Positions 1 through 14,272 of a stretch of 64,000 nucleotides of DNA are shown piece by piece. The notes beneath the pieces were generated by a model. It worked only from the letters and a program-made list of their open reading frames with translations, had not been told where the DNA came from and did not search any database. Both the position numbers and the translations under genes were made by a program. Numbering within the stretch: the first letter of the stretch is position 1; each line of letters opens with the position of its first letter. The stretch comes from Naegleria gruberi (taxonomy: Eukaryota): NCBI GenBank assembly GCA_000004985.1, contig GG738879.1. One strand, written 5' to 3'.

Positions 1-416
1 ACCCAAACCCAAACCCAAACCCAAACCCGAACCCAAACCCAAACCCAAACCCAAACCCAAACCCAAACCCAAACCCAAACCCAAACCCAAACCCAAACCC
101 AAACCCAAACCCAAACCCAAACCCAAACCCAAACCCAAACCCAAACCCAAACCCAAACCCAAACCCAAACCCAAACCCAAACCCAAACCCAAACCCAAAC
201 CCAAACCCAAACCCAAACCCAAACCCAAACCCAAACCCAAACCCAAACCCAAACCCAAACCCAAACCCAAACCCAAACCCAAACCCAAACCCAAACCCAA
301 ACCCAAACCCAAACCCAAACCCAAACCCAAACCCAAACCCAAACCCAAACCCAAACCCAAACCCAAACCCAAACCCAAACCCAAACCCAAACCCAAACCC
401 AAACCCAAACCCAACC
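1..416. repeat. Terminal telomeric repeat tract (CCCAAA)n; G-strand TTTGGG
   Basis: About 69 perfect tandem hexamers starting at base 1, with the C-rich strand 5'->3' as expected for a left chromosome end. One variant unit CCCGAA lies near position 27. The tract ends at ...cccaaccccac before unique sequence. Confidence 0.9.
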
Positions 417-441
417 CCACAGTTCTCAAATTACTCAATCT

Positions 442-1036
442 ATGCTCCAAGAAGATGGTTTTGATATATCAGATGAAAGTTATGATATTACCTGGAATAA
501 CATTCCTATAATTACTGACCTATCTTTAGATAATATCTTTCTTAATTACTCTGCCACAGAATTACATATTCCAATGATTAGATGTCCAAAATGGATATCA
601 GCTTGGGTTAAAATTAATTCACCAAAACAAAAAGCAATACTTTTAGAAGCAATGAAAGGAAAAGATAATAGTAATACTATATTTTCTTCAGAATTAACTA
701 AATGGGTTAATTCATATTTTCCAGAAAACCAATTAGAAGAGATTAAACAGAGTTCATTATATGATAATGCTACTACTAGAAAAGAAATTAATAAGGTTAC
801 TAAATATTTGAAAAAACAATATTGTTTTAATAAGATGACAGAAACAATTGTTGACGAAGAATTAGCAAGAATGAATATTCAATTAATTAAGAAAGGCAAT
901 GCTTGGACATGGGAACAAATTTTACAAGAAGATGAAGAAGAAGATTATCAACCTCAAACAAAGAAGAAAAAGACTGTTGACGATTATTCCTCTATTAATT
1001 GGCAAGAATTACATCCTCAATTTATTAAAATTGAAG
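442..1036 (+). CDS. Subtelomeric ORF, 5' portion, truncated by an assembly gap (hypothetical protein)
   Basis: ATG at 442, open for 198 codons until the N run begins at 1037. Bases 421-753 recur identically at 3361-3693. Confidence 0.5.
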
Positions 1037-2896
1037 NNNNNNNNNNNNNNNNNNNNNNNNNNNNNNNNNNNNNNNNNNNNNNNNNNNNNNNNNNNNNNNN
1101 NNNNNNNNNNNNNNNNNNNNNNNNNNNNNNNNNNNNNNNNNNNNNNNNNNNNNNNNNNNNNNNNNNNNNNNNNNNNNNNNNNNNNNNNNNNNNNNNNNNN
1201 NNNNNNNNNNNNNNNNNNNNNNNNNNNNNNNNNNNNNNNNNNNNNNNNNNNNNNNNNNNNNNNNNNNNNNNNNNNNNNNNNNNNNNNNNNNNNNNNNNNN
1301 NNNNNNNNNNNNNNNNNNNNNNNNNNNNNNNNNNNNNNNNNNNNNNNNNNNNNNNNNNNNNNNNNNNNNNNNNNNNNNNNNNNNNNNNNNNNNNNNNNNN
1401 NNNNNNNNNNNNNNNNNNNNNNNNNNNNNNNNNNNNNNNNNNNNNNNNNNNNNNNNNNNNNNNNNNNNNNNNNNNNNNNNNNNNNNNNNNNNNNNNNNNN
1501 NNNNNNNNNNNNNNNNNNNNNNNNNNNNNNNNNNNNNNNNNNNNNNNNNNNNNNNNNNNNNNNNNNNNNNNNNNNNNNNNNNNNNNNNNNNNNNNNNNNN
1601 NNNNNNNNNNNNNNNNNNNNNNNNNNNNNNNNNNNNNNNNNNNNNNNNNNNNNNNNNNNNNNNNNNNNNNNNNNNNNNNNNNNNNNNNNNNNNNNNNNNN
1701 NNNNNNNNNNNNNNNNNNNNNNNNNNNNNNNNNNNNNNNNNNNNNNNNNNNNNNNNNNNNNNNNNNNNNNNNNNNNNNNNNNNNNNNNNNNNNNNNNNNN
1801 NNNNNNNNNNNNNNNNNNNNNNNNNNNNNNNNNNNNNNNNNNNNNNNNNNNNNNNNNNNNNNNNNNNNNNNNNNNNNNNNNNNNNNNNNNNNNNNNNNNN
1901 NNNNNNNNNNNNNNNNNNNNNNNNNNNNNNNNNNNNNNNNNNNNNNNNNNNNNNNNNNNNNNNNNNNNNNNNNNNNNNNNNNNNNNNNNNNNNNNNNNNN
2001 NNNNNNNNNNNNNNNNNNNNNNNNNNNNNNNNNNNNNNNNNNNNNNNNNNNNNNNNNNNNNNNNNNNNNNNNNNNNNNNNNNNNNNNNNNNNNNNNNNNN
2101 NNNNNNNNNNNNNNNNNNNNNNNNNNNNNNNNNNNNNNNNNNNNNNNNNNNNNNNNNNNNNNNNNNNNNNNNNNNNNNNNNNNNNNNNNNNNNNNNNNNN
2201 NNNNNNNNNNNNNNNNNNNNNNNNNNNNNNNNNNNNNNNNNNNNNNNNNNNNNNNNNNNNNNNNNNNNNNNNNNNNNNNNNNNNNNNNNNNNNNNNNNNN
2301 NNNNNNNNNNNNNNNNNNNNNNNNNNNNNNNNNNNNNNNNNNNNNNNNNNNNNNNNNNNNNNNNNNNNNNNNNNNNNNNNNNNNNNNNNNNNNNNNNNNN
2401 NNNNNNNNNNNNNNNNNNNNNNNNNNNNNNNNNNNNNNNNNNNNNNNNNNNNNNNNNNNNNNNNNNNNNNNNNNNNNNNNNNNNNNNNNNNNNNNNNNNN
2501 NNNNNNNNNNNNNNNNNNNNNNNNNNNNNNNNNNNNNNNNNNNNNNNNNNNNNNNNNNNNNNNNNNNNNNNNNNNNNNNNNNNNNNNNNNNNNNNNNNNN
2601 NNNNNNNNNNNNNNNNNNNNNNNNNNNNNNNNNNNNNNNNNNNNNNNNNNNNNNNNNNNNNNNNNNNNNNNNNNNNNNNNNNNNNNNNNNNNNNNNNNNN
2701 NNNNNNNNNNNNNNNNNNNNNNNNNNNNNNNNNNNNNNNNNNNNNNNNNNNNNNNNNNNNNNNNNNNNNNNNNNNNNNNNNNNNNNNNNNNNNNNNNNNN
2801 NNNNNNNNNNNNNNNNNNNNNNNNNNNNNNNNNNNNNNNNNNNNNNNNNNNNNNNNNNNNNNNNNNNNNNNNNNNNNNNNNNNNNNNNNNNNNNNN
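1037..2896. other. Assembly gap (run of N, 1860 nt)
   Basis: Continuous n characters. The track ORFs translated across it (X runs) are artefacts. Confidence 0.99.
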
Positions 2897-3296
2897 ACCA
2901 AACCCAAACCCAAACCCAAACCCAAACCCAAACCCAAACCCAAACCCAAACCCAAACCCAAACCCAAACCCAAACCCAAACCCGAACCCAAACCCAAACC
3001 CAAACCCAAACCCAAACCCAAACCCAAACCCAAACCCAAACCCAAACCCAAACCCAAACCCAAACCCAAACCCAAACCCAAACCCAAACCCAAACCCAAA
3101 CCCAAACCCAAACCCAAACCCAAACCCAAACCCAAACCCAAACCCAAACCCAAACCCAAACCCAAACCCAAACCCAAACCCAAACCCAAACCCAAACCCA
3201 AACCCAAACCCAAACCCAAACCCAAACCCAAACCCAAACCCAAACCCAAACCCAAACCCAAACCCAAACCCAAACCCAAACCCAAACCCAAACCCA
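2897..3296. repeat. Second (internal) telomeric (CCCAAA)n tract in the same orientation as the terminal one
   Basis: About 66 hexamer units, one CCCGAA variant, immediately after the N gap. It is followed by 64 bp of unique sequence and then the same subtelomeric block as at 421. Confidence 0.9.
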
Positions 3297-3381
3297 TAGA
3301 GATTTATCAGAAGGTTATTCTTTCATTTCTTCATTAGCTGAACCTGGAGGATGGAGTTATAGTTCTCAAATTACTCAATCT

Positions 3382-3693
3382 ATGCTCCAAGAAGATGGTT
3401 TTGATATATCAGATGAAAGTTATGATATTACCTGGAATAACATTCCTATAATTACTGACCTATCTTTAGATAATATCTTTCTTAATTACTCTGCCACAGA
3501 ATTACATATTCCAATGATTAGATGTCCAAAATGGATATCAGCTTGGGTTAAAATTAATTCACCAAAACAAAAAGCAATACTTTTAGAAGCAATGAAAGGA
3601 AAAGATAATAGTAATACTATATTTTCTTCAGAATTAACTAAATGGGTTAATTCATATTTTCCAGAAAACCAATTAGAAGAGATTAAACAGAGT
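3382..3693 (+). CDS. Second copy of the subtelomeric ORF, 5' portion, truncated by a 50-N gap
   Basis: Identical to 442-753 (offset 2940). ATG at 3382. Confidence 0.5.
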
Positions 3694-3743
3694 NNNNNNN
3701 NNNNNNNNNNNNNNNNNNNNNNNNNNNNNNNNNNNNNNNNNNN
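3694..3743. other. Assembly gap (50 N)
   Basis: n run. Confidence 0.99.
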
Positions 3744-4514
3744 TGCGCGCTTAAATGGTCCTATCAAGGTTCTCAAGAATGATAAAATCAAAATTGACCT
3801 CAGTGGTCACAAAACTGATTTCTTCCTTATTGAAAAGCCAATTACTATTGATAAGAATACAAAGAATCCAAGTCTTTGCCCAATAACCCTAATAAAAGAA
3901 AAAACCTAATTGGAGCCATCACAGAAGGACTTAGAAAAGGTGTTTCTACTTCAGATCTCATGGTTGGTGCAAGACATAAGAAAACCAACAGTTTATTTCC
4001 TTATCTACGATCTGAGGGTCTTGCTAGCAAGAATTTCACAGACACCTTATTTTCTCTGGACGAACCCATTGGTTTATCAACGATTGTTTTATTGTTTCTT
4101 TTGGAGAAATATGTAGAGTTGCGAGGAAGAATTAAAATAGAGAACTTTAATGGATTGGAGTTTTTACCGATTTTTTCCTGCAATGCAGGTTTTTTATAGG
4201 GGAGTTGTTCTACTTCAATCTCGATTTTGTAAACAACTATATTAACTCGGGACAATGCTAAATAAAGTACAATGACCCAAAAAGCAGCATTTCTGAGCAA
4301 CATACCATTTGGATGAAGAATATGTTGAGTGAGCTTTTACCTCAACTTATATTTTATTAAGTTTACAATGAAAACAAGTCCATTCTTCACTTCGATCAGA
4401 ATTAGACACAATTTTGGGCCAATATTGAGAGAACAGTTTTTCCAATTTCATGGTCTTATGACAAGATTAAAAGAGGAATTACTATTATTTGGTCCTTGAA
4501 TTGATAGAAAAGCT

Positions 4515-5160
4515 TTGAAATGTGACCCAATTTTCTATCATCATATTGAAGGTTTTATTCAAAGAAAAGATCATTATGATCCTTTCATTTTCAAACTCAC
4601 CAGTGCCATGTTAGTCATTGGTTTCAGACTTTTCGCTAGACCAGGTGAATTAGCTAGACTCAAGTGGGTTATGTTACTAAGCTTAGAAATGGTAACATCA
4701 AATTATCTCAGTGGTCGCCAAACAGATTTATGGAAAAGCCGACAAGAAATTAAACCTTCAAATTTACATCATTAATAGATCATAAAAATACAATCAATGA
4801 TAATCAATCTTCACTAAGTAATATCTTAAATAACCCAAATAAGTCAACTCGAATTCCAAACCAAACCTTTTGAGGTGTTCATTTATACTAATTTCAATCG
4901 TTGCCTTCCCCACCGCTAATTTCTTGACAATTTAAAAAGGTTCAAACATCTGGGCCCACCAAACAAACCATGGAGATTCCAAAAATCAAGTCATTTTTGA
5001 AAAATTCATTTAAATTACAGATTTATTTTTACAGAGCTCGACAGTTGACTATACAAAGTTCCAATTTAGAAACACTTTCTGTGAACGATACCTGGACCGG
5101 CATCCTCATATTCTTCCTTTGTGATCCACATCTGTTGAAAGGTAGAAAGGCTCGCTAAGA
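4515..5160 (+). pseudogene. Decayed tyrosine-recombinase (phage-integrase family; Crypton/DIRS-like) gene remnant, frameshifted
   Basis: Frame 1 (4594-4669) reads LTSAMLVIGFRLFARPGELARLKW, matching the XerD/Int box I motif (AML..L.Y.TG.R.SEL..L.W). About 95 codons downstream, in another frame, LPHR is followed by a stop near 4895-4910. About 38 codons further, in a third frame, LQIYFY sits near 5020. Spacing and order fit R...HxxR...Y, but the three blocks are in different frames with stops. Confidence 0.45.
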
Positions 5161-6199
5161 TGGAACCACCAATCCAGACAGAGTACTTTCTTTCTGGTGG
5201 AGCAACAACCTTAATCTTCATTGAGGCAGGAGCCATAGCAGTCAATTCCTTGGTCATTCTTTCAGCAATACCTTCGAACATGGTAGTACCACCAGACAAG
5301 ACAACGTTACCATACAAATCCTTTCTGATATCAATATCACATTTACCAATAGAGTTGAAAGTAGTTTCATGAACACCAGCAGCTTCCATACCAATGAAAT
5401 TAGGTTGGAACAAAACTTCTGGACATCTGAATCTTTCGTTACCAACAGTAATGACATTACCATCTGGCAATTCGTATGACTTTTCAACTGAGGATGATTC
5501 AGCAGCAACCTTCATTTCAGCTTCAAAGTCCAAAGCAATATAACAGAGCTTTTCCTTAATATCTCTGACAATTTCTCTTTCAGCAGTAGTATTGAATGAA
5601 TAACCTCTTTCCATCAAAATCTTCATCAAATAATCAGTCAAGTCACGACCAGCCAAATCCAATCTCAAAATGGCGTGTGGCAAAGCATAACCTTCATAAA
5701 TTGGAACAGTGTGAGAAACACCATCACCAGAGTCCAAAACAATACCAGTAGTTCTACCAGAAGCATACAAGGACAAGACAGCTTGAATAGCAACATACAT
5801 AGCTGGAACTGAGAAGGTTTCAAACATAATTTGAGTCATCTTTTCTCTATTGGCCTTTGGATTCAAAGGAGCTTCAGTCAACAAGACTGGATGTTCTTCT
5901 GGAGCAACTCTCAATTCATTGTAGAAAGTGTGATGCCAAATCTTTTCCATATCATCCCAATTGGTAACAATACCGTGTTCAATTGGATACTTCAAAGTCA
6001 AGATACCTCTCTTTGATTGAGCTTCATCACCAACATAGGCATCCTTATTACCCATACCAACCATGATGGACTTTTGCTTTGGTCTACCAATAATTGAAGG
6101 GAAGACAGCTCTTGGAGCATCATCACCAGCAAAACCAGCTTTACACATACCAGAACCGTTGTCAACAACGAGGGCTTGAACGTCTTCACAGAAGGACAT
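5066..6199 (-). CDS. Actin (377 aa, single exon)
   Basis: [40 protein letters not shown]... is full-length conventional actin. The true ATG is at 6199..6197 (the track ORF extends upstream through non-ATG codons). Codon usage is strongly biased (GGT, AGA, TTG, GCT, CCA). Confidence 0.97.
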
Positions 6200-6897
6200 G
6201 TTGAGAGTTTGTTTTTTTTGTTTGTGAATAATGTCATTATCGGGATGTGATTTAAATAAGAAATGTGTGATGACAGGATAAATGATTTGTTCAAGTAGAG
6301 TTGATGGGTGAATGACTTGTTTACAAAATATGAAGGTCAACAAGCAACTTGACTTCAAAAACCTTTTTAGAGATATGGTAACTTCAATTGTAAAATGAAT
6401 TGTAAAAGATTGTCAACACATTTACCTCACTGAAATCTAATCACCTTTACGCTATCCAAAATAATAATTTTCCTAATACCAACTTCTAGAAAGATCCAAA
6501 GTGTTTTCCGCAATACTTAAACAACCTCTTTCTAATTCTTCATATCATCCATTGAATCAAAAATTATTGCCTGTTGTGGAATTTATAAATTATCTGAAAG
6601 AAAATGAGAATTGAGAAAAATGTATTGAGAGGAATATAGAGGAAAGGGATAGATGGTTATTGGAAAGCCATACAAAAAGCTAAGGAAATGAATTATAAAC
6701 AAATGGAATGGGAAGCTTCTTGTGTGTTAGTGGAGGCACTTGCATTTGGATTTTCAAGAGCGGGTGATTGCACATTTATGTTCAAGAGGTTGATAGGAGT
6801 TTCTTAAAAATGGTTTTATATTCTGTTGTGTCATAATTAATAAGGAATATATTTAGGAACCATAATGGCTTCCCTTAATAATTGCAATAAGGGAGAA

Positions 6898-6978
6898 GCG
6901 GTCTTGACCGAGTGGTTAAGGTGATTGACTAGAAATCAATTGGGGTGACCCGCACAGGTTCGAATCCTGTAGACCGCG
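6898..6978 (+). tRNA. tRNA-Ser (anticodon AGA), class II with long variable arm
   Basis: Acceptor GCGGTCT/AGACCGC pairs perfectly. Anticodon stem ATTGA/TCAAT with loop CTAGAAA. Variable arm TGGGGTGACCCGCA. T arm CAGGTTCGAATCCTG. Discriminator G. Confidence 0.85.
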
Positions 6979-7177
6979 AAATTTTTGATATTATAAATAC
7001 TTTGCTTTGATATATTGAAATCACAACAACTTCATATGAGGCTTTGGACCAACTCCAATATTAGAATCCTAAACGAAATATAATGTAAGAGCAGCTAGAA
7101 ATGAAGAACATCCTTCTTTAGCTCAAAATGTGTCGTCTACTGAAAAAGAAAGAATATTAAATAGTTTTTTTTGAATT

Positions 7178-12142: not shown

Positions 12143-14272
12143 TTATTTACCAGCACGTTTACAACAACATTTAAATACTCTCCTAATAAACCTTCTTGGA
12201 CTCTTCTTACCAATAATAAATCTCAATCCAAAATAAGCAAATATTCTACAGAGAAACATTATTACAATTAAGCACGAAACATAAATCCACAATACACTAT
12301 AAGATCCCTCAATACCGTAAACACTCTCTAAAAAGTATGAACCATTGGTAAAATGGTTAGCAGGAATAGTTCCAGTCTGGTTGGAATAATAAACCTCTGC
12401 AAATTCATTAATCATCATACATCTGAATCCATAGAAAACATAGGACAAATAACTAATCCATTGAGTGTAAGGTGTTTCGAATATTCTATTCTTTCCAAAG
12501 GATCCACTCGCAAATATTGTGAACATGTTCAATACAGAACTCATAAAGGCAAGTATATATGGTATAGGAAAGAAGCAAACCAAGAATTCAGCAAAGCTCT
12601 GACAAGTCAAATGATAAACCACAAAGATAAACATGAAGGTGAAAATACGTCCTACAGATAAATATAATCCAACCATGAAATAGACAACAAGACCAAATAT
12701 GAGAGGAAATATAGAGTATGTAATAGTATTCACCACCGTTCTGGCAATATAGTACGCAGACATTGGGTAAAAAGTTGATTTTCTCTCCTGTTGCATACCA
12801 GGTAATTGACTAATAAATGTTTTCAAGGTTAAACCAAAGGTTAAGGAAATGCTAAAATTCAAAAATGAAAATACTCTAGATCTGTAGTACATATCAGTTG
12901 GCTCTAGTTGAAAGTATATCAATCCAATTCCAAAACCAATCAGTAAATTTTCCAAAAATGGTGACAATACATCTTGTCGCCAATTCCTCTTCTTCAATCT
13001 AAATGCTCTCTCAATCAGTATCAAGATTGTATAAAAGTAATTGGAGTGATACTTTTCTGTTTGAATATTATCAACCTTATTGTGTGAATAGGTGGACAAA
13101 ATTTCATTAGCTTGAGGTTTGTAAAAAGTATCCAATCTTAACTTGAATTCTTCTGCAAGATTATCCTTCTTGAGAGATATTTGTTCACTATCGTGGGGAA
13201 TAAACTCGGAGAATAGTTGCAACTCTTTCTCATTTCCATTCTTTAATATTTTGTGAAAGAGCAACAATTCTAGAATATTGCTGACAATGTTTTGTGTTTG
13301 CACGGTTAGAGGAATTTCCAAAATATTAGAAAAGTAATGACTTAACAAGTCAATTTTTCCAAAATAAATTTGTTGTCCCTTATCAAGTAAACAAACATAA
13401 TCAAATAGTGAAATTTCTCTAATAGAAGGTTTATGGACAGTCATGACAATACTCACACCAAAACAAGCAACTCTTTTCAAAGATTGTACAAGAAGAAACG
13501 ACTCTGCAAACTCCAAATCATCAGTAGGTTCCTCCAATAAAACAACTCGATGATAGAACACATTTTGAATAGCAATGGTCAATCTCCTCTTTTCCCCTCC
13601 AGATAGTGATGGATAGAATTTGTTCTGCACTTCCTTCAATCGATAACAATCCAACAATAGTTCTAATCTCTCTTGCCTATTTGTCCAAACCTTATGTTTC
13701 GGATGCATTGGAAGTCTCAAATTGATGGCATATTGAAGAATTTCATTCACAGTTAATGAATTAAAGTAGGGAGCATAATATTCCTTTGATACATGAGATA
13801 CCAATGCTCTGTACTTGTTTGTTGTTGATTTGTATAGCTGCTTTTCACTATTCATCACCACTTCTCCATTCAACAGAATATCACCATCAAAATTATTGGA
13901 CAAGGCAGCTTCTCTCATGGCCAAAACTCTCAACAATAAACTCTTCCCAGAAGATGATGGACCACATATTGCTGTAATAGAACCTGGTTTAGCAAATCCG
14001 TAAATATTCTGAAGAAATGGTTTTTTGGAGGGGAAGGAAATGTTTCTCCACTCTATGCAACATTGTTGTTCAAAGAGAAGAGTTGCTTGTTTGTCTTCTG
14101 GTGGTTGATTGATAGTAGGGGTGTTTGATAGTACTTCACTTGTTGTTGTTGTTGTTATTGATTGTGATGATGAAGAATGACCAGTGGAGGGAATTTCATC
14201 TTGTTGATGATGTTGTTCTGATGGTAGAAGATGATCATTCTTGATATTAATTATTACAGTTTCATCCACCAT
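12143..14272 (-). CDS. ABCG-type half transporter (NBD followed by TMD)
   Basis: Walker A GPSSSGKS, ABC signature LSGGEKRRL, degenerate Walker B VVLLEEPTDD, followed by about 6 predicted TM helices. ATG at 14272. Confidence 0.85.
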   Translation of the reverse strand: MVDETVIINIKNDHLLPSEQHHQQDEIPSTGHSSSSQSITTTTTSEVLSNTPTINQPPEDKQATLLFEQQCCIEWRNISFPSKKPFLQNIYGFAKPGSITAICGPSSSGKSLLLRVLAMREAALSNNFDGDILLNGEVVMNSEKQLYKSTTNKYRALVSHVSKEYYAPYFNSLTVNEILQYAINLRLPMHPKHKVWTNRQERLELLLDCYRLKEVQNKFYPSLSGGEKRRLTIAIQNVFYHRVVLLEEPTDDLEFAESFLLVQSLKRVACFGVSIVMTVHKPSIREISLFDYVCLLDKGQQIYFGKIDLLSHYFSNILEIPLTVQTQNIVSNILELLLFHKILKNGNEKELQLFSEFIPHDSEQISLKKDNLAEEFKLRLDTFYKPQANEILSTYSHNKVDNIQTEKYHSNYFYTILILIERAFRLKKRNWRQDVLSPFLENLLIGFGIGLIYFQLEPTDMYYRSRVFSFLNFSISLTFGLTLKTFISQLPGMQQERKSTFYPMSAYYIARTVVNTITYSIFPLIFGLVVYFMVGLYLSVGRIFTFMFIFVVYHLTCQSFAEFLVCFFPIPYILAFMSSVLNMFTIFASGSFGKNRIFETPYTQWISYLSYVFYGFRCMMINEFAEVYYSNQTGTIPANHFTNGSYFLESVYGIEGSYSVLWIYVSCLIVIMFLCRIFAYFGLRFIIGKKSPRRFIRRVFKCCCKRAGK

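What the first reader, a model, noticed from the sequence alone, without database searches (positions are those of the whole stretch)
3744..5160. Frameshifted tyrosine-recombinase remnant between the subtelomeric block and actin
Three motif blocks lie in three different frames, interrupted by stops: AML..LxxxTGxRxxELxxLKW (box I Arg), an H/R block about 95 codons later, and a QIY-type catalytic Tyr region about 38 codons after that. Their order and spacing are those of phage-integrase-family recombinases, as encoded by Crypton or DIRS elements in eukaryotes. Its position directly inboard of the duplicated subtelomeric ORF raises the possibility that the telomere-adjacent repeat is part of a tyrosine-recombinase mobile element that colonised chromosome ends.
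Basis: partly seen in the sequence, partly recalled or inferred. Interest (0 to 1): 0.55.

Follow-up and report, generated by a model that had tools for sequence, protein, structure and literature searches.

The report
Dead DIRS-type retrotransposon fragments beside actin
The region holds two broken pieces of tyrosine-recombinase genes left by two subfamilies of a DIRS1-like retrotransposon of the amoeba Naegleria gruberi; this is ordinary transposon debris near a chromosome end, not a new telomere-colonising element.

Summary
The window is a Naegleria gruberi scaffold end (TTTGGG telomere; actin protein identical to N. gruberi actin).

- **Fragment A (3744-~4345).** This is the 3' end of a P0001/L003-type element. 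It keeps the beta-hairpin Lys and the RH...Tyr motif (Tyr codon 4002-4004). A ~155-nt deletion has removed HxxR. Its stop codon is mutated, and the 3' non-coding region follows.
- **Fragment B (4409-4741).** This is a 330-nt internal piece of a P0002/L005-type YR ORF, 95% identical in DNA to an intact element. It has four indels. It contains the box I Arg (4605-4667) and a Lys-to-Gln change.
The "H/R" block (~4905-4955) and the "QIY" block (5012-5044) lie in DNA with no homology to any element. They are chance matches.
- **Intact relatives.** They carry a gag-like ORF, a pol ORF (RT plus a weak Dam-like MT domain) and a YR ORF that overlaps pol for hundreds of codons. This is the published DIRS1-like architecture, not Crypton.
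- **The subtelomeric ORF.** It has no similarity to these elements or to any protein searched, so the proposed telomere link is unsupported.

Interest is low.

The parts
3744..3906 (+). Fragment A, part 1: YR ORF codons matching P0001 residues ~154-204. It includes the beta-hairpin Lys (LSGHKTDFF, 3799-3825). It starts at the contig edge directly after the N gap. A local 3-nt loss turns KWSY into NGP. It ends at a TAA stop at 3907-3909.
   Evidence: tblastn P0001 161-204 to 3763-3894, 95%. blastn 3744-3897 to L003 3588-3744, 80%. Alignment. HMM E = 5.3e-18. Coordinates.
3898..3907 (+). Deletion junction in fragment A. About 155 nt of the YR ORF (L003 ~3745-3902; P0001 residues 205-258, including the SGHSxRIG HxxR motif) are replaced by ~10 nt, and the reading frame changes.
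   Evidence: Alignment of the window to L003. Gap between the two tblastn pieces of P0001.
3908..4064 (+). Fragment A, part 2: the last ~52 codons of the YR ORF, with the RH...Y motif (GARHKKTNSLFPYLRSEG, 3966-4019; catalytic Tyr codon 4002-4004). The stop codon is mutated (TAA in L003, GAA at 4062-4064).
   Evidence: tblastn P0001 259-309 to 3909-4061, 98%. blastn to L003 3903-4107, 82%. HMM E = 1.3e-19..
4065..4345 (+). Fragment A, 3' non-coding region of the element (the ICR/terminal-repeat region of the parent element). A possibly degenerate continuation runs to ~4400.
   Evidence: Window 3987-4128 matches L003 2-144 (85%) across the wrap-around of that contig. Window 4149-4341 matches L002 4553-4749 (80-81%).
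4409..4741 (+). Fragment B: an internal piece of a P0002/L005-type YR ORF (L005 3333-~3655; P0002 residues ~87-195). It contains the box I Arg (AMLVIGFRLFARPGELARLKW, 4605-4667). The beta-hairpin is mutated (SGHKTD to SGRQTD, 4707-4727), so the catalytic Lys is lost. It has four frame-breaking indels and is truncated at both ends.
   Evidence: blastn 4409-4729 to L005 3333-3646, 92.6%, E = 5e-109. Global alignment 311/326 = 95.4%. HMM E = 1.3e-29 and 4.7e-9. tblastn. Coordinates.
4742..5065 (.). Spacer and actin 3' flank with no detectable relation to the element.
   Evidence: Local alignment scores are no better than shuffles. No HMM hit at E <= 10 with --max. No blastn or tblastn hit.
5066..6199 (-). 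Actin gene (377 aa plus stop), the first ordinary gene inboard of the fragments. It is not part of the element.
   Evidence: ORF. The exact protein equals N. gruberi actin EFC36529.1 and others. Pfam PF00022.
3296..3693 (+). Subtelomeric orphan ORF (a second copy lies at 421-1036). It is context only and is not part of the recombinase element.
   Evidence: No similarity to L002-L005. No Pfam family. No homologue in the protein search or in metagenome contigs.

Best explanation
Window 3744-4741 holds two adjacent, same-strand, non-functional fragments of DIRS1-like (DIRS-order, tyrosine-recombinase) retrotransposons of Naegleria gruberi. They belong to two subfamilies.

**Fragment A** is the 3' end of one element. 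It comprises the distal recombinase catalytic domain with an internal deletion, plus the 3' non-coding/ICR region.

**Fragment B** is a 330-nt internal piece of the recombinase ORF of another element.

**Why they are inactive (shown).**
- Neither fragment has a complete catalytic set.
- Both have frame disruptions.
- No RT or gag sequence is present in the window.

**How the parent elements work (established knowledge of DIRS1-like elements, PMC3266345; not tested here).** The RNA is reverse-transcribed. The cDNA is closed into a circle through pairing of the termini with the internal complementary regions. The tyrosine recombinase then inserts the circle by site-specific recombination, without target-site duplication.

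**How the juxtaposition arose (inferred).** It most likely came from insertion of one element into or beside another, followed by deletions. The rest of fragment A may lie in the assembly gap at 3694-3743.
For: **Relatives of the window pieces.** A composite of the window pieces retrieves only Naegleria or unnamed proteins: P0001 at E = 3.9e-68, P0002 at 2e-61, P0003 at 9e-61.

**These relatives are tyrosine recombinases.**
- PF00589 is the top Pfam hit in all 8; P0007 (40.3 bits) and P0006 (29.6 bits) exceed the 27.1-bit cut-off.
- The family profile hits only XerA, Cre, Tre and one chain named Integrase below E = 0.01 (best 1.4e-4).
- R149, K177, H255, R258, H/W281 and Y290 are invariant.
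- A low-confidence model still finds only Cre and XerA among its 35 PDB hits with E <= 1e-3.

**Element context of the relatives.**
- L005 has a gag-like ORF1 (159-1277), a pol ORF (1237-3150: RVT_1 at 3e-26, Dam-like MT at 19.6 bits) and a YR ORF (3153-4046).
- L003, L002 and N. fowleri L004 show the same layout.
- The YR frame is almost free of stops across pol: 0-3 observed against 26-42 expected, reached by 0 of 1000 synonymous shuffles. Host genes in the window show no such depletion.
- This matches the published DIRS1-like 'long ORF overlap', with the catalytic domain in the non-overlapping 3' end.

**Mapping of the fragments.** There are no RT or gag hits anywhere in the 64-kb window.

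**Prior report.** DIRS1-like sequences were already listed for N. gruberi, as 7 copies in 6 families, frameshifted and of uncertain status (PMC3266345).
Against: - The N. gruberi genome itself could not be read. Look-ups of P0001-P0003 found no contig on record. The full-length architecture is therefore shown in metagenome contigs (80-95% nt identity to the fragments) and in N. fowleri, not at N. gruberi loci. The only direct N. gruberi link is that P0001 starts with the last ~27 residues of pol (MLIITPLSELQDKFE...).
- No annotated N. gruberi RT protein was retrieved.
- The MT match is below Pfam's cut-off, and no RNase H family was reported.
- ITRs were not identified. L003 and L005 show direct wrap-around repeats instead.
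- The first ~20 nt of fragment A lie at a contig edge, where sequence errors are possible.
- Nested insertion is an inference.
Confidence: 0.9

Rival explanations
1. It is a remnant of a Crypton, a DNA transposon that encodes only a tyrosine recombinase and has no reverse transcriptase.
For: The window contains recombinase-derived sequence only, with no RT or gag. N. gruberi gene models P0001-P0003 are annotated as stand-alone ~300-aa proteins.
Against: - Fragment B is 92.6-95.4% identical in DNA to the YR ORF of L005, which lies directly after an RVT_1 pol ORF and a gag-like ORF.
- All four retrieved elements share this layout, and in all four the YR frame is kept open across pol.
- P0001 begins with the C-terminal residues of pol.
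Confidence: 0.03
2. It is one frameshifted recombinase pseudogene running from box I (4605) through an H/R block (~4910-4955) to a QIY Tyr (5012-5044).
Against: - Homology ends at ~4741 although the adjoining stretch is 95% identical.
- 4730-5065 aligns no better than shuffles to the distal ORF of three elements.
- There is no profile hit at E <= 10.
Confidence: 0.02
3. The fragments and the telomere-adjacent orphan ORF are parts of one composite telomere-associated mobile element that uses a tyrosine recombinase.
For: They are neighbours on the scaffold. The orphan ORF occurs on two telomere-bearing contigs with different telomere junctions.
Against: - Units of ~4.0 kb (L003 3,980 nt; L005 4,018 nt) are filled by gag, pol and YR, with no similar sequence.
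- The N. fowleri copy sits mid-contig between ordinary genes.
- The adjacency here spans an N gap of unknown content.
Confidence: 0.05

Closest known systems
DIRS1-like retrotransposons (for example Dictyostelium DIRS-1, and Acanthamoeba AcasDIRS1 at 3,974 bp; Piednoel et al. 2011, PMC3266345)
   Same: - Intact relatives of the fragments have a gag-like ORF, a pol ORF with RT and a Dam/MT-like domain, and a YR ORF.
- The YR ORF overlaps pol for hundreds of codons, and its catalytic domain lies in the non-overlapping 3' end.
- The unit size is about 4 kb.
- A short segment at the YR stop is inverse-complementary to the 5' region (L004 8325-8355 / 12429-12459, 94%), as expected for an ICR.
   Different: - Inverted terminal repeats were not identified.
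- The metagenome contigs show direct wrap-around repeats. These could reflect tandem or circular forms, or PAT-like split direct repeats.
- The window itself holds only recombinase and 3' fragments.
PAT-like and Ngaro elements (other DIRS-order retrotransposons)
   Same: They are retrotransposons that encode a tyrosine recombinase. PAT-like elements also have the MT domain and are bounded by split direct repeats.
   Different: Ngaro elements lack the MT domain and usually have no ORF overlap (PMC3266345), whereas both are seen here. Discriminating PAT-like from DIRS1-like needs defined termini, which were not resolved.
Crypton DNA transposons
   Same: They are eukaryotic mobile elements with a phage-integrase-family tyrosine recombinase.
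   Different: Cryptons have no reverse transcriptase. In the relatives found here the recombinase ORF is always linked to, and overlaps, an RT-containing pol ORF.
Cre, XerA and lambda Int (prokaryotic and phage tyrosine recombinases)
   Same: They share the R-K-H-R-H/W-Y catalytic residues and a two-domain layout. The family profile hits XerA at E = 1.4e-4 and Cre at 2.4e-4.
   Different: Sequence identity is only ~15%. The Naegleria proteins are retroelement ORFs, not phage or chromosome-dimer-resolution enzymes.

Membership tests
Tyrosine recombinase (Pfam PF00589, Phage_integrase) | Profile match above the curated threshold, in intact relatives | tested here: met
   P0007 scores 40.3 bits and P0006 29.6 bits against a cut-off of 27.1. 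The other six relatives give sub-threshold hits to the same family. PDB profile hits below E = 0.01 are XerA, Cre, Tre and one chain named Integrase.
Tyrosine recombinase (Pfam PF00589, Phage_integrase) | Profile match of the window fragments themselves | tested here: not met
   Zero Pfam families at E <= 10 for three conceptual translations of the fragments. They are recognised only through the Naegleria family profile.
Tyrosine recombinase (Pfam PF00589, Phage_integrase) | Catalytic residues R, K, H-x-x-R, H/W, Y | tested here: met
   R149, K177, H255, R258, H/W281 and Y290 (P0001 numbering) are invariant in 10 intact relatives.
Tyrosine recombinase (Pfam PF00589, Phage_integrase) | A complete catalytic set in the window copies | tested here: not met
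   Fragment A has K, H and Y, but HxxR is deleted and box I lies off the contig edge. Fragment B has only the box I Arg, and its Lys is changed to Gln.
Tyrosine recombinase (Pfam PF00589, Phage_integrase) | Two-domain Cre/Xer-like fold | tested here: inconclusive
   The AlphaFold2 model of P0003 is poor (mean pLDDT 52.3, pTM 0.42). All 35 Foldseek PDB hits with E <= 1e-3 are Cre, Tre or XerA, but TM-scores are only ~0.36.
DIRS1-like retrotransposon (DIRS order) | A gag-like ORF, a pol ORF with RT (plus RH and MT) and a YR ORF in one unit | tested here: met
   - Seen in L005, L003, L002 and L004.
- RVT_1 scores E = 3e-26.
- The Dam/MT match is 19.6-22.3 bits, below the 28.1 cut-off, at the same position in two elements.
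- Many ORF2 homologues carry PF05869.
- RNase H was not reported by Pfam.
DIRS1-like retrotransposon (DIRS order) | Long overlap of the YR ORF with pol, with the catalytic domain in the non-overlapping 3' end | tested here: met
   0, 1, 3 and 3 stops in the YR frame across pol, against 26-42 expected; 0 of 1000 shuffles reach this. Host genes show no comparable depletion. Definition taken from PMC3266345.
DIRS1-like retrotransposon (DIRS order) | Inverted terminal repeats plus internal complementary regions | tested here: inconclusive
   - A 31-nt, 94% inverse complement links the 5' region and the YR stop in L004; a 25-nt, 80% one does so in L005.
- No ITR pair was found.
- L003 ends overlap by exactly 127 nt, and L005 has 246-nt, 97% direct repeats.
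DIRS1-like retrotransposon (DIRS order) | Insertion without target-site duplication | not tested
   No element ends could be defined in the window or in the loci.
DIRS1-like retrotransposon (DIRS order) | RT and gag present at this locus (that is, a complete element) | tested here: not met
   tblastn with ORF1 and ORF2 of three elements gives no hit in the 64-kb window at E <= 0.01. The locus holds fragments only, though part could be hidden in the N gap.
Crypton | A recombinase-only element without reverse transcriptase | tested here: not met
   All retrieved relatives have an RT-containing pol ORF immediately upstream of, and overlapping, the YR ORF.
Ngaro | No MT domain and no long ORF overlap | tested here: not met
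   A weak MT match and a strong ORF overlap are both present.

The most novel reading that the evidence does not exclude
DIRS1-like elements of Naegleria preferentially accumulate at, or are targeted to, chromosome ends, and together with the orphan telomere-adjacent ORF they form a recurrent subtelomeric module. If so, recombinase-mediated exchange between copies would shape Naegleria chromosome ends, much as DIRS-1 clusters mark Dictyostelium centromeres.
Probability: 0.06. Interest if true: 0.45.

Novelty: new member of a known kind. Interest (0 to 1): 0.15.

Why it matters
It matters mainly for annotation. The stretch between the subtelomeric repeat and actin should be labelled as two DIRS1-like retrotransposon fragments, not as a gene or a new element.

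The work also shows that Naegleria carries clearly DIRS1-like elements: gag, pol with RT and an MT-like domain, and a long pol-overlapping YR ORF. A 2011 survey had left their status in N. gruberi uncertain.

Several short N. gruberi 'predicted proteins' (P0001-P0003 and relatives) are the catalytic ends of that transposon ORF. No new mechanism is implied.

Tried and rejected
- **Pfam on the fragments.** Scanning the window's conceptual translations gave nothing even at E <= 10.
- **Genomic context of P0001-P0003.** No contig was on record for them, so N. gruberi loci could not be inspected.
- **More copies in the window.** Searches with tblastn, blastn and a family HMM found only the two fragments.
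- **Homology downstream of 4741.** Relaxed tblastn (word size 2), blastn (word size 7) and Smith-Waterman with shuffles all failed to extend homology. The best peptide match (YIDTVQHFKKADSP / FLDNLKRFKHLGPP, E = 1.3) is not significant and not collinear.
- **The subtelomeric ORF.** It was tested against Pfam, 5.8 billion proteins, JGI metagenome contigs and the four elements. Nothing was found.
- **Structure prediction.** The model of P0003, built from an 8-sequence alignment, had low confidence, so the fold search is treated only as weak support.
- **Rfam.** The only hit in 3296-7000 is a tRNA-Ser.
- **The long 785-916-aa YR proteins.** I first suspected these were annotation artefacts. I rejected that after the stop-depletion test and the published description of DIRS1-like ORF overlap.
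- **Element termini.** I could not define ITRs or split direct repeats.

Full report
**Setting.**
- The window begins with a (CCCAAA)n array at 1-415, followed by an ORF at 442-1036 and a 1,860-N gap.
- Next come a second (CCCAAA)n array (2897-3295), the same ORF (3296-3693) and a 50-N gap (3694-3743).
- The finding region follows, then an actin gene on the minus strand (5066-6199).
- The actin protein is identical to N. gruberi actin (EFC36529.1 and three further accessions).
- TTTGGG is the candidate telomere repeat reported for N. gruberi (PMC3622300).
- The finding therefore lies just inboard of a Naegleria gruberi scaffold end. Its left boundary, 3744, is simply the first base after a gap.

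**Checking the observation.**
- A three-frame translation shows AMLVIGFRLFARPGELARLKW at 4605-4667.
- The translated pieces give no Pfam hit, even at E <= 10.
- A composite of the pieces retrieves eight proteins, all from Naegleria or unnamed: P0001 at 3.9e-68, P0002 at 2e-61, P0003 at 9e-61.
- These ~300-aa proteins are tyrosine recombinases:
  - PF00589 is the top Pfam family in all eight, and two exceed the curated cut-off (P0007 at 40.3 bits, P0006 at 29.6, cut-off 27.1).
  - A profile of ten members hits XerA (1.4e-4), Cre/Tre (from 2.4e-4) and one chain named Integrase; nothing else scores below E = 0.01.
  - The catalytic residues R149, K177, H255, R258, H/W281 and Y290 are invariant.
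  - The AlphaFold2 model was poor (pLDDT 52). Its Foldseek hits with E <= 1e-3 were all Cre, Tre or XerA, and the weaker listed hits were other tyrosine recombinases. I count this as weak support only.

**Real anatomy of the region.**

*Fragment A (3744-~4345)*
- 3763-3894 matches P0001 residues 161-204 at 95% identity. 3909-4061 matches residues 259-309 at 98%.
- In DNA it is collinear with L003 3588-3744 and 3903-4107, at 80-82% identity.
- About 155 nt between these two pieces are deleted. The deleted stretch encodes the SGHSxRIG (HxxR) motif. The deletion leaves a TAA stop at 3907-3909 and a change of frame.
- The fragment retains the beta-hairpin Lys (LSGHKTDFF, 3799-3825) and the RH...Y motif (GARHKKTNSLFPYLRSEG, 3966-4019; Tyr codon 4002-4004).
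- Its stop codon is mutated to GAA at 4062-4064.
- It continues into the element's 3' non-coding region. 3987-4128 matches L003 2-144, and 4149-4341 matches L002 4553-4749.

*Fragment B (4409-4741)*
- It matches L005 3333-3646 at 92.6% by BLASTN (E = 5e-109) and at 95.4% in a global alignment.
- It has a +1 indel near 4499, -1 at 4666, -2 near 4706 and -7 near 4730.
- The catalytic Lys is changed: SGHKTD has become SGRQTD.
- It is cut off at both ends.

*Profile check*
- A family HMM run with --max on all six-frame segments of the whole window finds exactly these pieces, at E = 1.3e-29, 1.3e-19, 5.3e-18 and 4.7e-9. Nothing else scores below E = 1.

- LPHR/KRFKHLG (4905-4955) and KLQIYFYRARQ (5012-5044) lie in 4742-5065.
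- That stretch aligns to the distal parts of L005, L003 and L002 no better than shuffled sequence; 157-187 of 200 shuffles reach the observed score.
- It gives no profile hit.
- The adjoining stretch is 95% identical to L005, so a continuation would have been easy to see.
- These two blocks are chance matches. Their spacing happens to resemble the family's.
- The region therefore contains a box I from one fragment and, upstream of it, the Tyr motif of another. It is not one frameshifted gene.

**What the parent element is.**
- Cluster members include 785-907-aa versions of the recombinase. Their contigs were retrieved as L002, L003, L005 and an N. fowleri genomic locus, L004.
- Each contains three ORFs:
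  - a gag-like ORF1 with no Pfam match;
  - a ~630-aa pol ORF, with RVT_1 at E = 3e-26 and a sub-threshold Dam/MT-like match at the same position in two elements;
  - the recombinase ORF.
- Many ORF2 homologues at ~30% identity carry RVT_1 plus PF05869, one of these also PF12237 (PCIF1_WW), and one other carries RVT_1 plus PF00589.
- In all four elements the recombinase frame is nearly stop-free across pol: 0, 1, 3 and 3 stops against 26-42 expected. No synonymous shuffle out of 1000 reaches so few. Thirteen host ORFs in the window show no such depletion.
- This is the published hallmark of DIRS1-like elements: three ORFs (GAG, YR, and pol with RT-RH-MT), considerable pol/YR overlap, and the catalytic domain in the non-overlapping 3' end. 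Ngaro and VIPER lack both the MT domain and the overlap (PMC3266345).
- The same paper lists 7 DIRS1-like copies in 6 families for N. gruberi, but leaves their status uncertain because of frameshifts.
- Cryptons are excluded, because the recombinase is always linked to an RT-containing ORF.
- The termini remain unresolved:
  - A short inverse complement links the 5' region and the recombinase stop codon, at 94% over 31 nt in L004 and 80% over 25 nt in L005. This is ICR-like.
  - No ITR pair was found.
  - L003 and L005 show direct wrap-around repeats with unit lengths of 3,980 and 4,018 nt.

**The telomere link.**
- The telomere-adjacent ORF has no similarity to any of the four elements.
- It has no Pfam family, no relative among 5.8 billion proteins and none in JGI metagenome contigs.
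- The ~4-kb units are filled by gag, pol and YR.
- The N. fowleri copy lies mid-contig between ordinary genes.
- The adjacency here is across an N gap.
- The proposal that the subtelomeric repeat is part of a recombinase element is therefore unsupported, although a single locus cannot exclude a positional preference.

**Mechanism.**
- *Shown:* both fragments are inactive. Each has an incomplete catalytic set and frame disruptions, and no RT or gag is present in the window.
- *From established knowledge of DIRS1-like elements (PMC3266345):* the parent elements replicate by reverse transcription. The cDNA is circularised through pairing of the termini with the ICRs. The tyrosine recombinase then integrates the circle without target-site duplication.
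- *Inferred:* the two fragments became neighbours through insertion of one element into or beside another, followed by deletions. The rest of fragment A may be hidden in the gap, since repeats commonly break assemblies.

**Limits.**
- N. gruberi genomic copies could not be retrieved.
- The full architecture therefore rests on metagenome contigs, at 80-95% nt identity to the fragments, and on N. fowleri.
- The only direct N. gruberi link is that P0001 begins with the last residues of pol.

**Verdict.** The recombinase signal is real, but this is ordinary debris of a known kind of retrotransposon. Interest is low.

Noticed in passing
window 1-1036 and 2897-3693: Two telomere-bearing contigs lie in tandem, in the same orientation, on the scaffold. 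Their subtelomeric sequence is 333/333 identical (421-753 vs 3361-3693). The (CCCAAA)n array joins at different points (421 vs 3296), so the ORF is truncated to different extents. This probably reflects two chromosome ends or alleles placed together by scaffolding, or independent telomere healing, rather than a true internal telomere.
   Followed up: partly
window 442-1036 and 3296-3693: The telomere-adjacent ORF is at least 226 codons long and open in ~29% GC DNA. It reads away from the telomere and runs into a gap. It is an orphan: no Pfam family, no relative among 5.8 billion proteins, none in JGI metagenome contigs.
   Followed up: yes
L002 1474-4056; L003 1309-4059; L004 10001-12433; L005 pol 1237-3150: The recombinase reading frame is almost stop-free across the whole pol ORF (0-3 stops against 26-42 expected), giving 785-916-aa YR ORFs whose N-terminal ~550 aa are overprinted on RT/MT. 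This matches the 'long ORF overlap' described for DIRS1-like elements. The function of the overprinted part is unknown.
   Followed up: yes
L003 1-127 = 3981-4107; L005 61-306 vs 4079-4324: The ends of contig L003 overlap by exactly 127 nt, the assembler's k-mer length. L005 carries 246-nt direct repeats at 97% identity, spaced 4,018 nt apart. The ~4.0-kb units were therefore assembled as circles or tandem copies, which could reflect tandem or nested insertions or circular DNA forms.
   Followed up: partly
L004 8325-8355 and 12429-12459 (N. fowleri): A 31-nt segment upstream of gag is 94% inverse-complementary to the sequence at the recombinase stop codon. This is a candidate left-terminus/ICR pair of a DIRS1-like element.
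   Followed up: partly
P0001 (XP_002674599.1) and relatives; N. gruberi 'predicted proteins' of 174-326 aa are the catalytic 3' ends of the transposon YR ORF. P0001 starts with the last residues of pol. No annotated N. gruberi RT protein was retrieved with the pol query, so the transposon seems only partly annotated in that genome.
   Followed up: partly
L001 vs window 5064-6223: A contig assembled from public sequencing run SRR3922091 encodes exactly the same actin protein but is only 94.8% identical in DNA. It presumably comes from another Naegleria strain or actin paralogue.
   Followed up: no
window 6898-6978: A tRNA-Ser (AGA) gene lies just beyond the actin promoter region. Three more tRNA genes are scattered among the densely packed genes of the window.
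   Followed up: no
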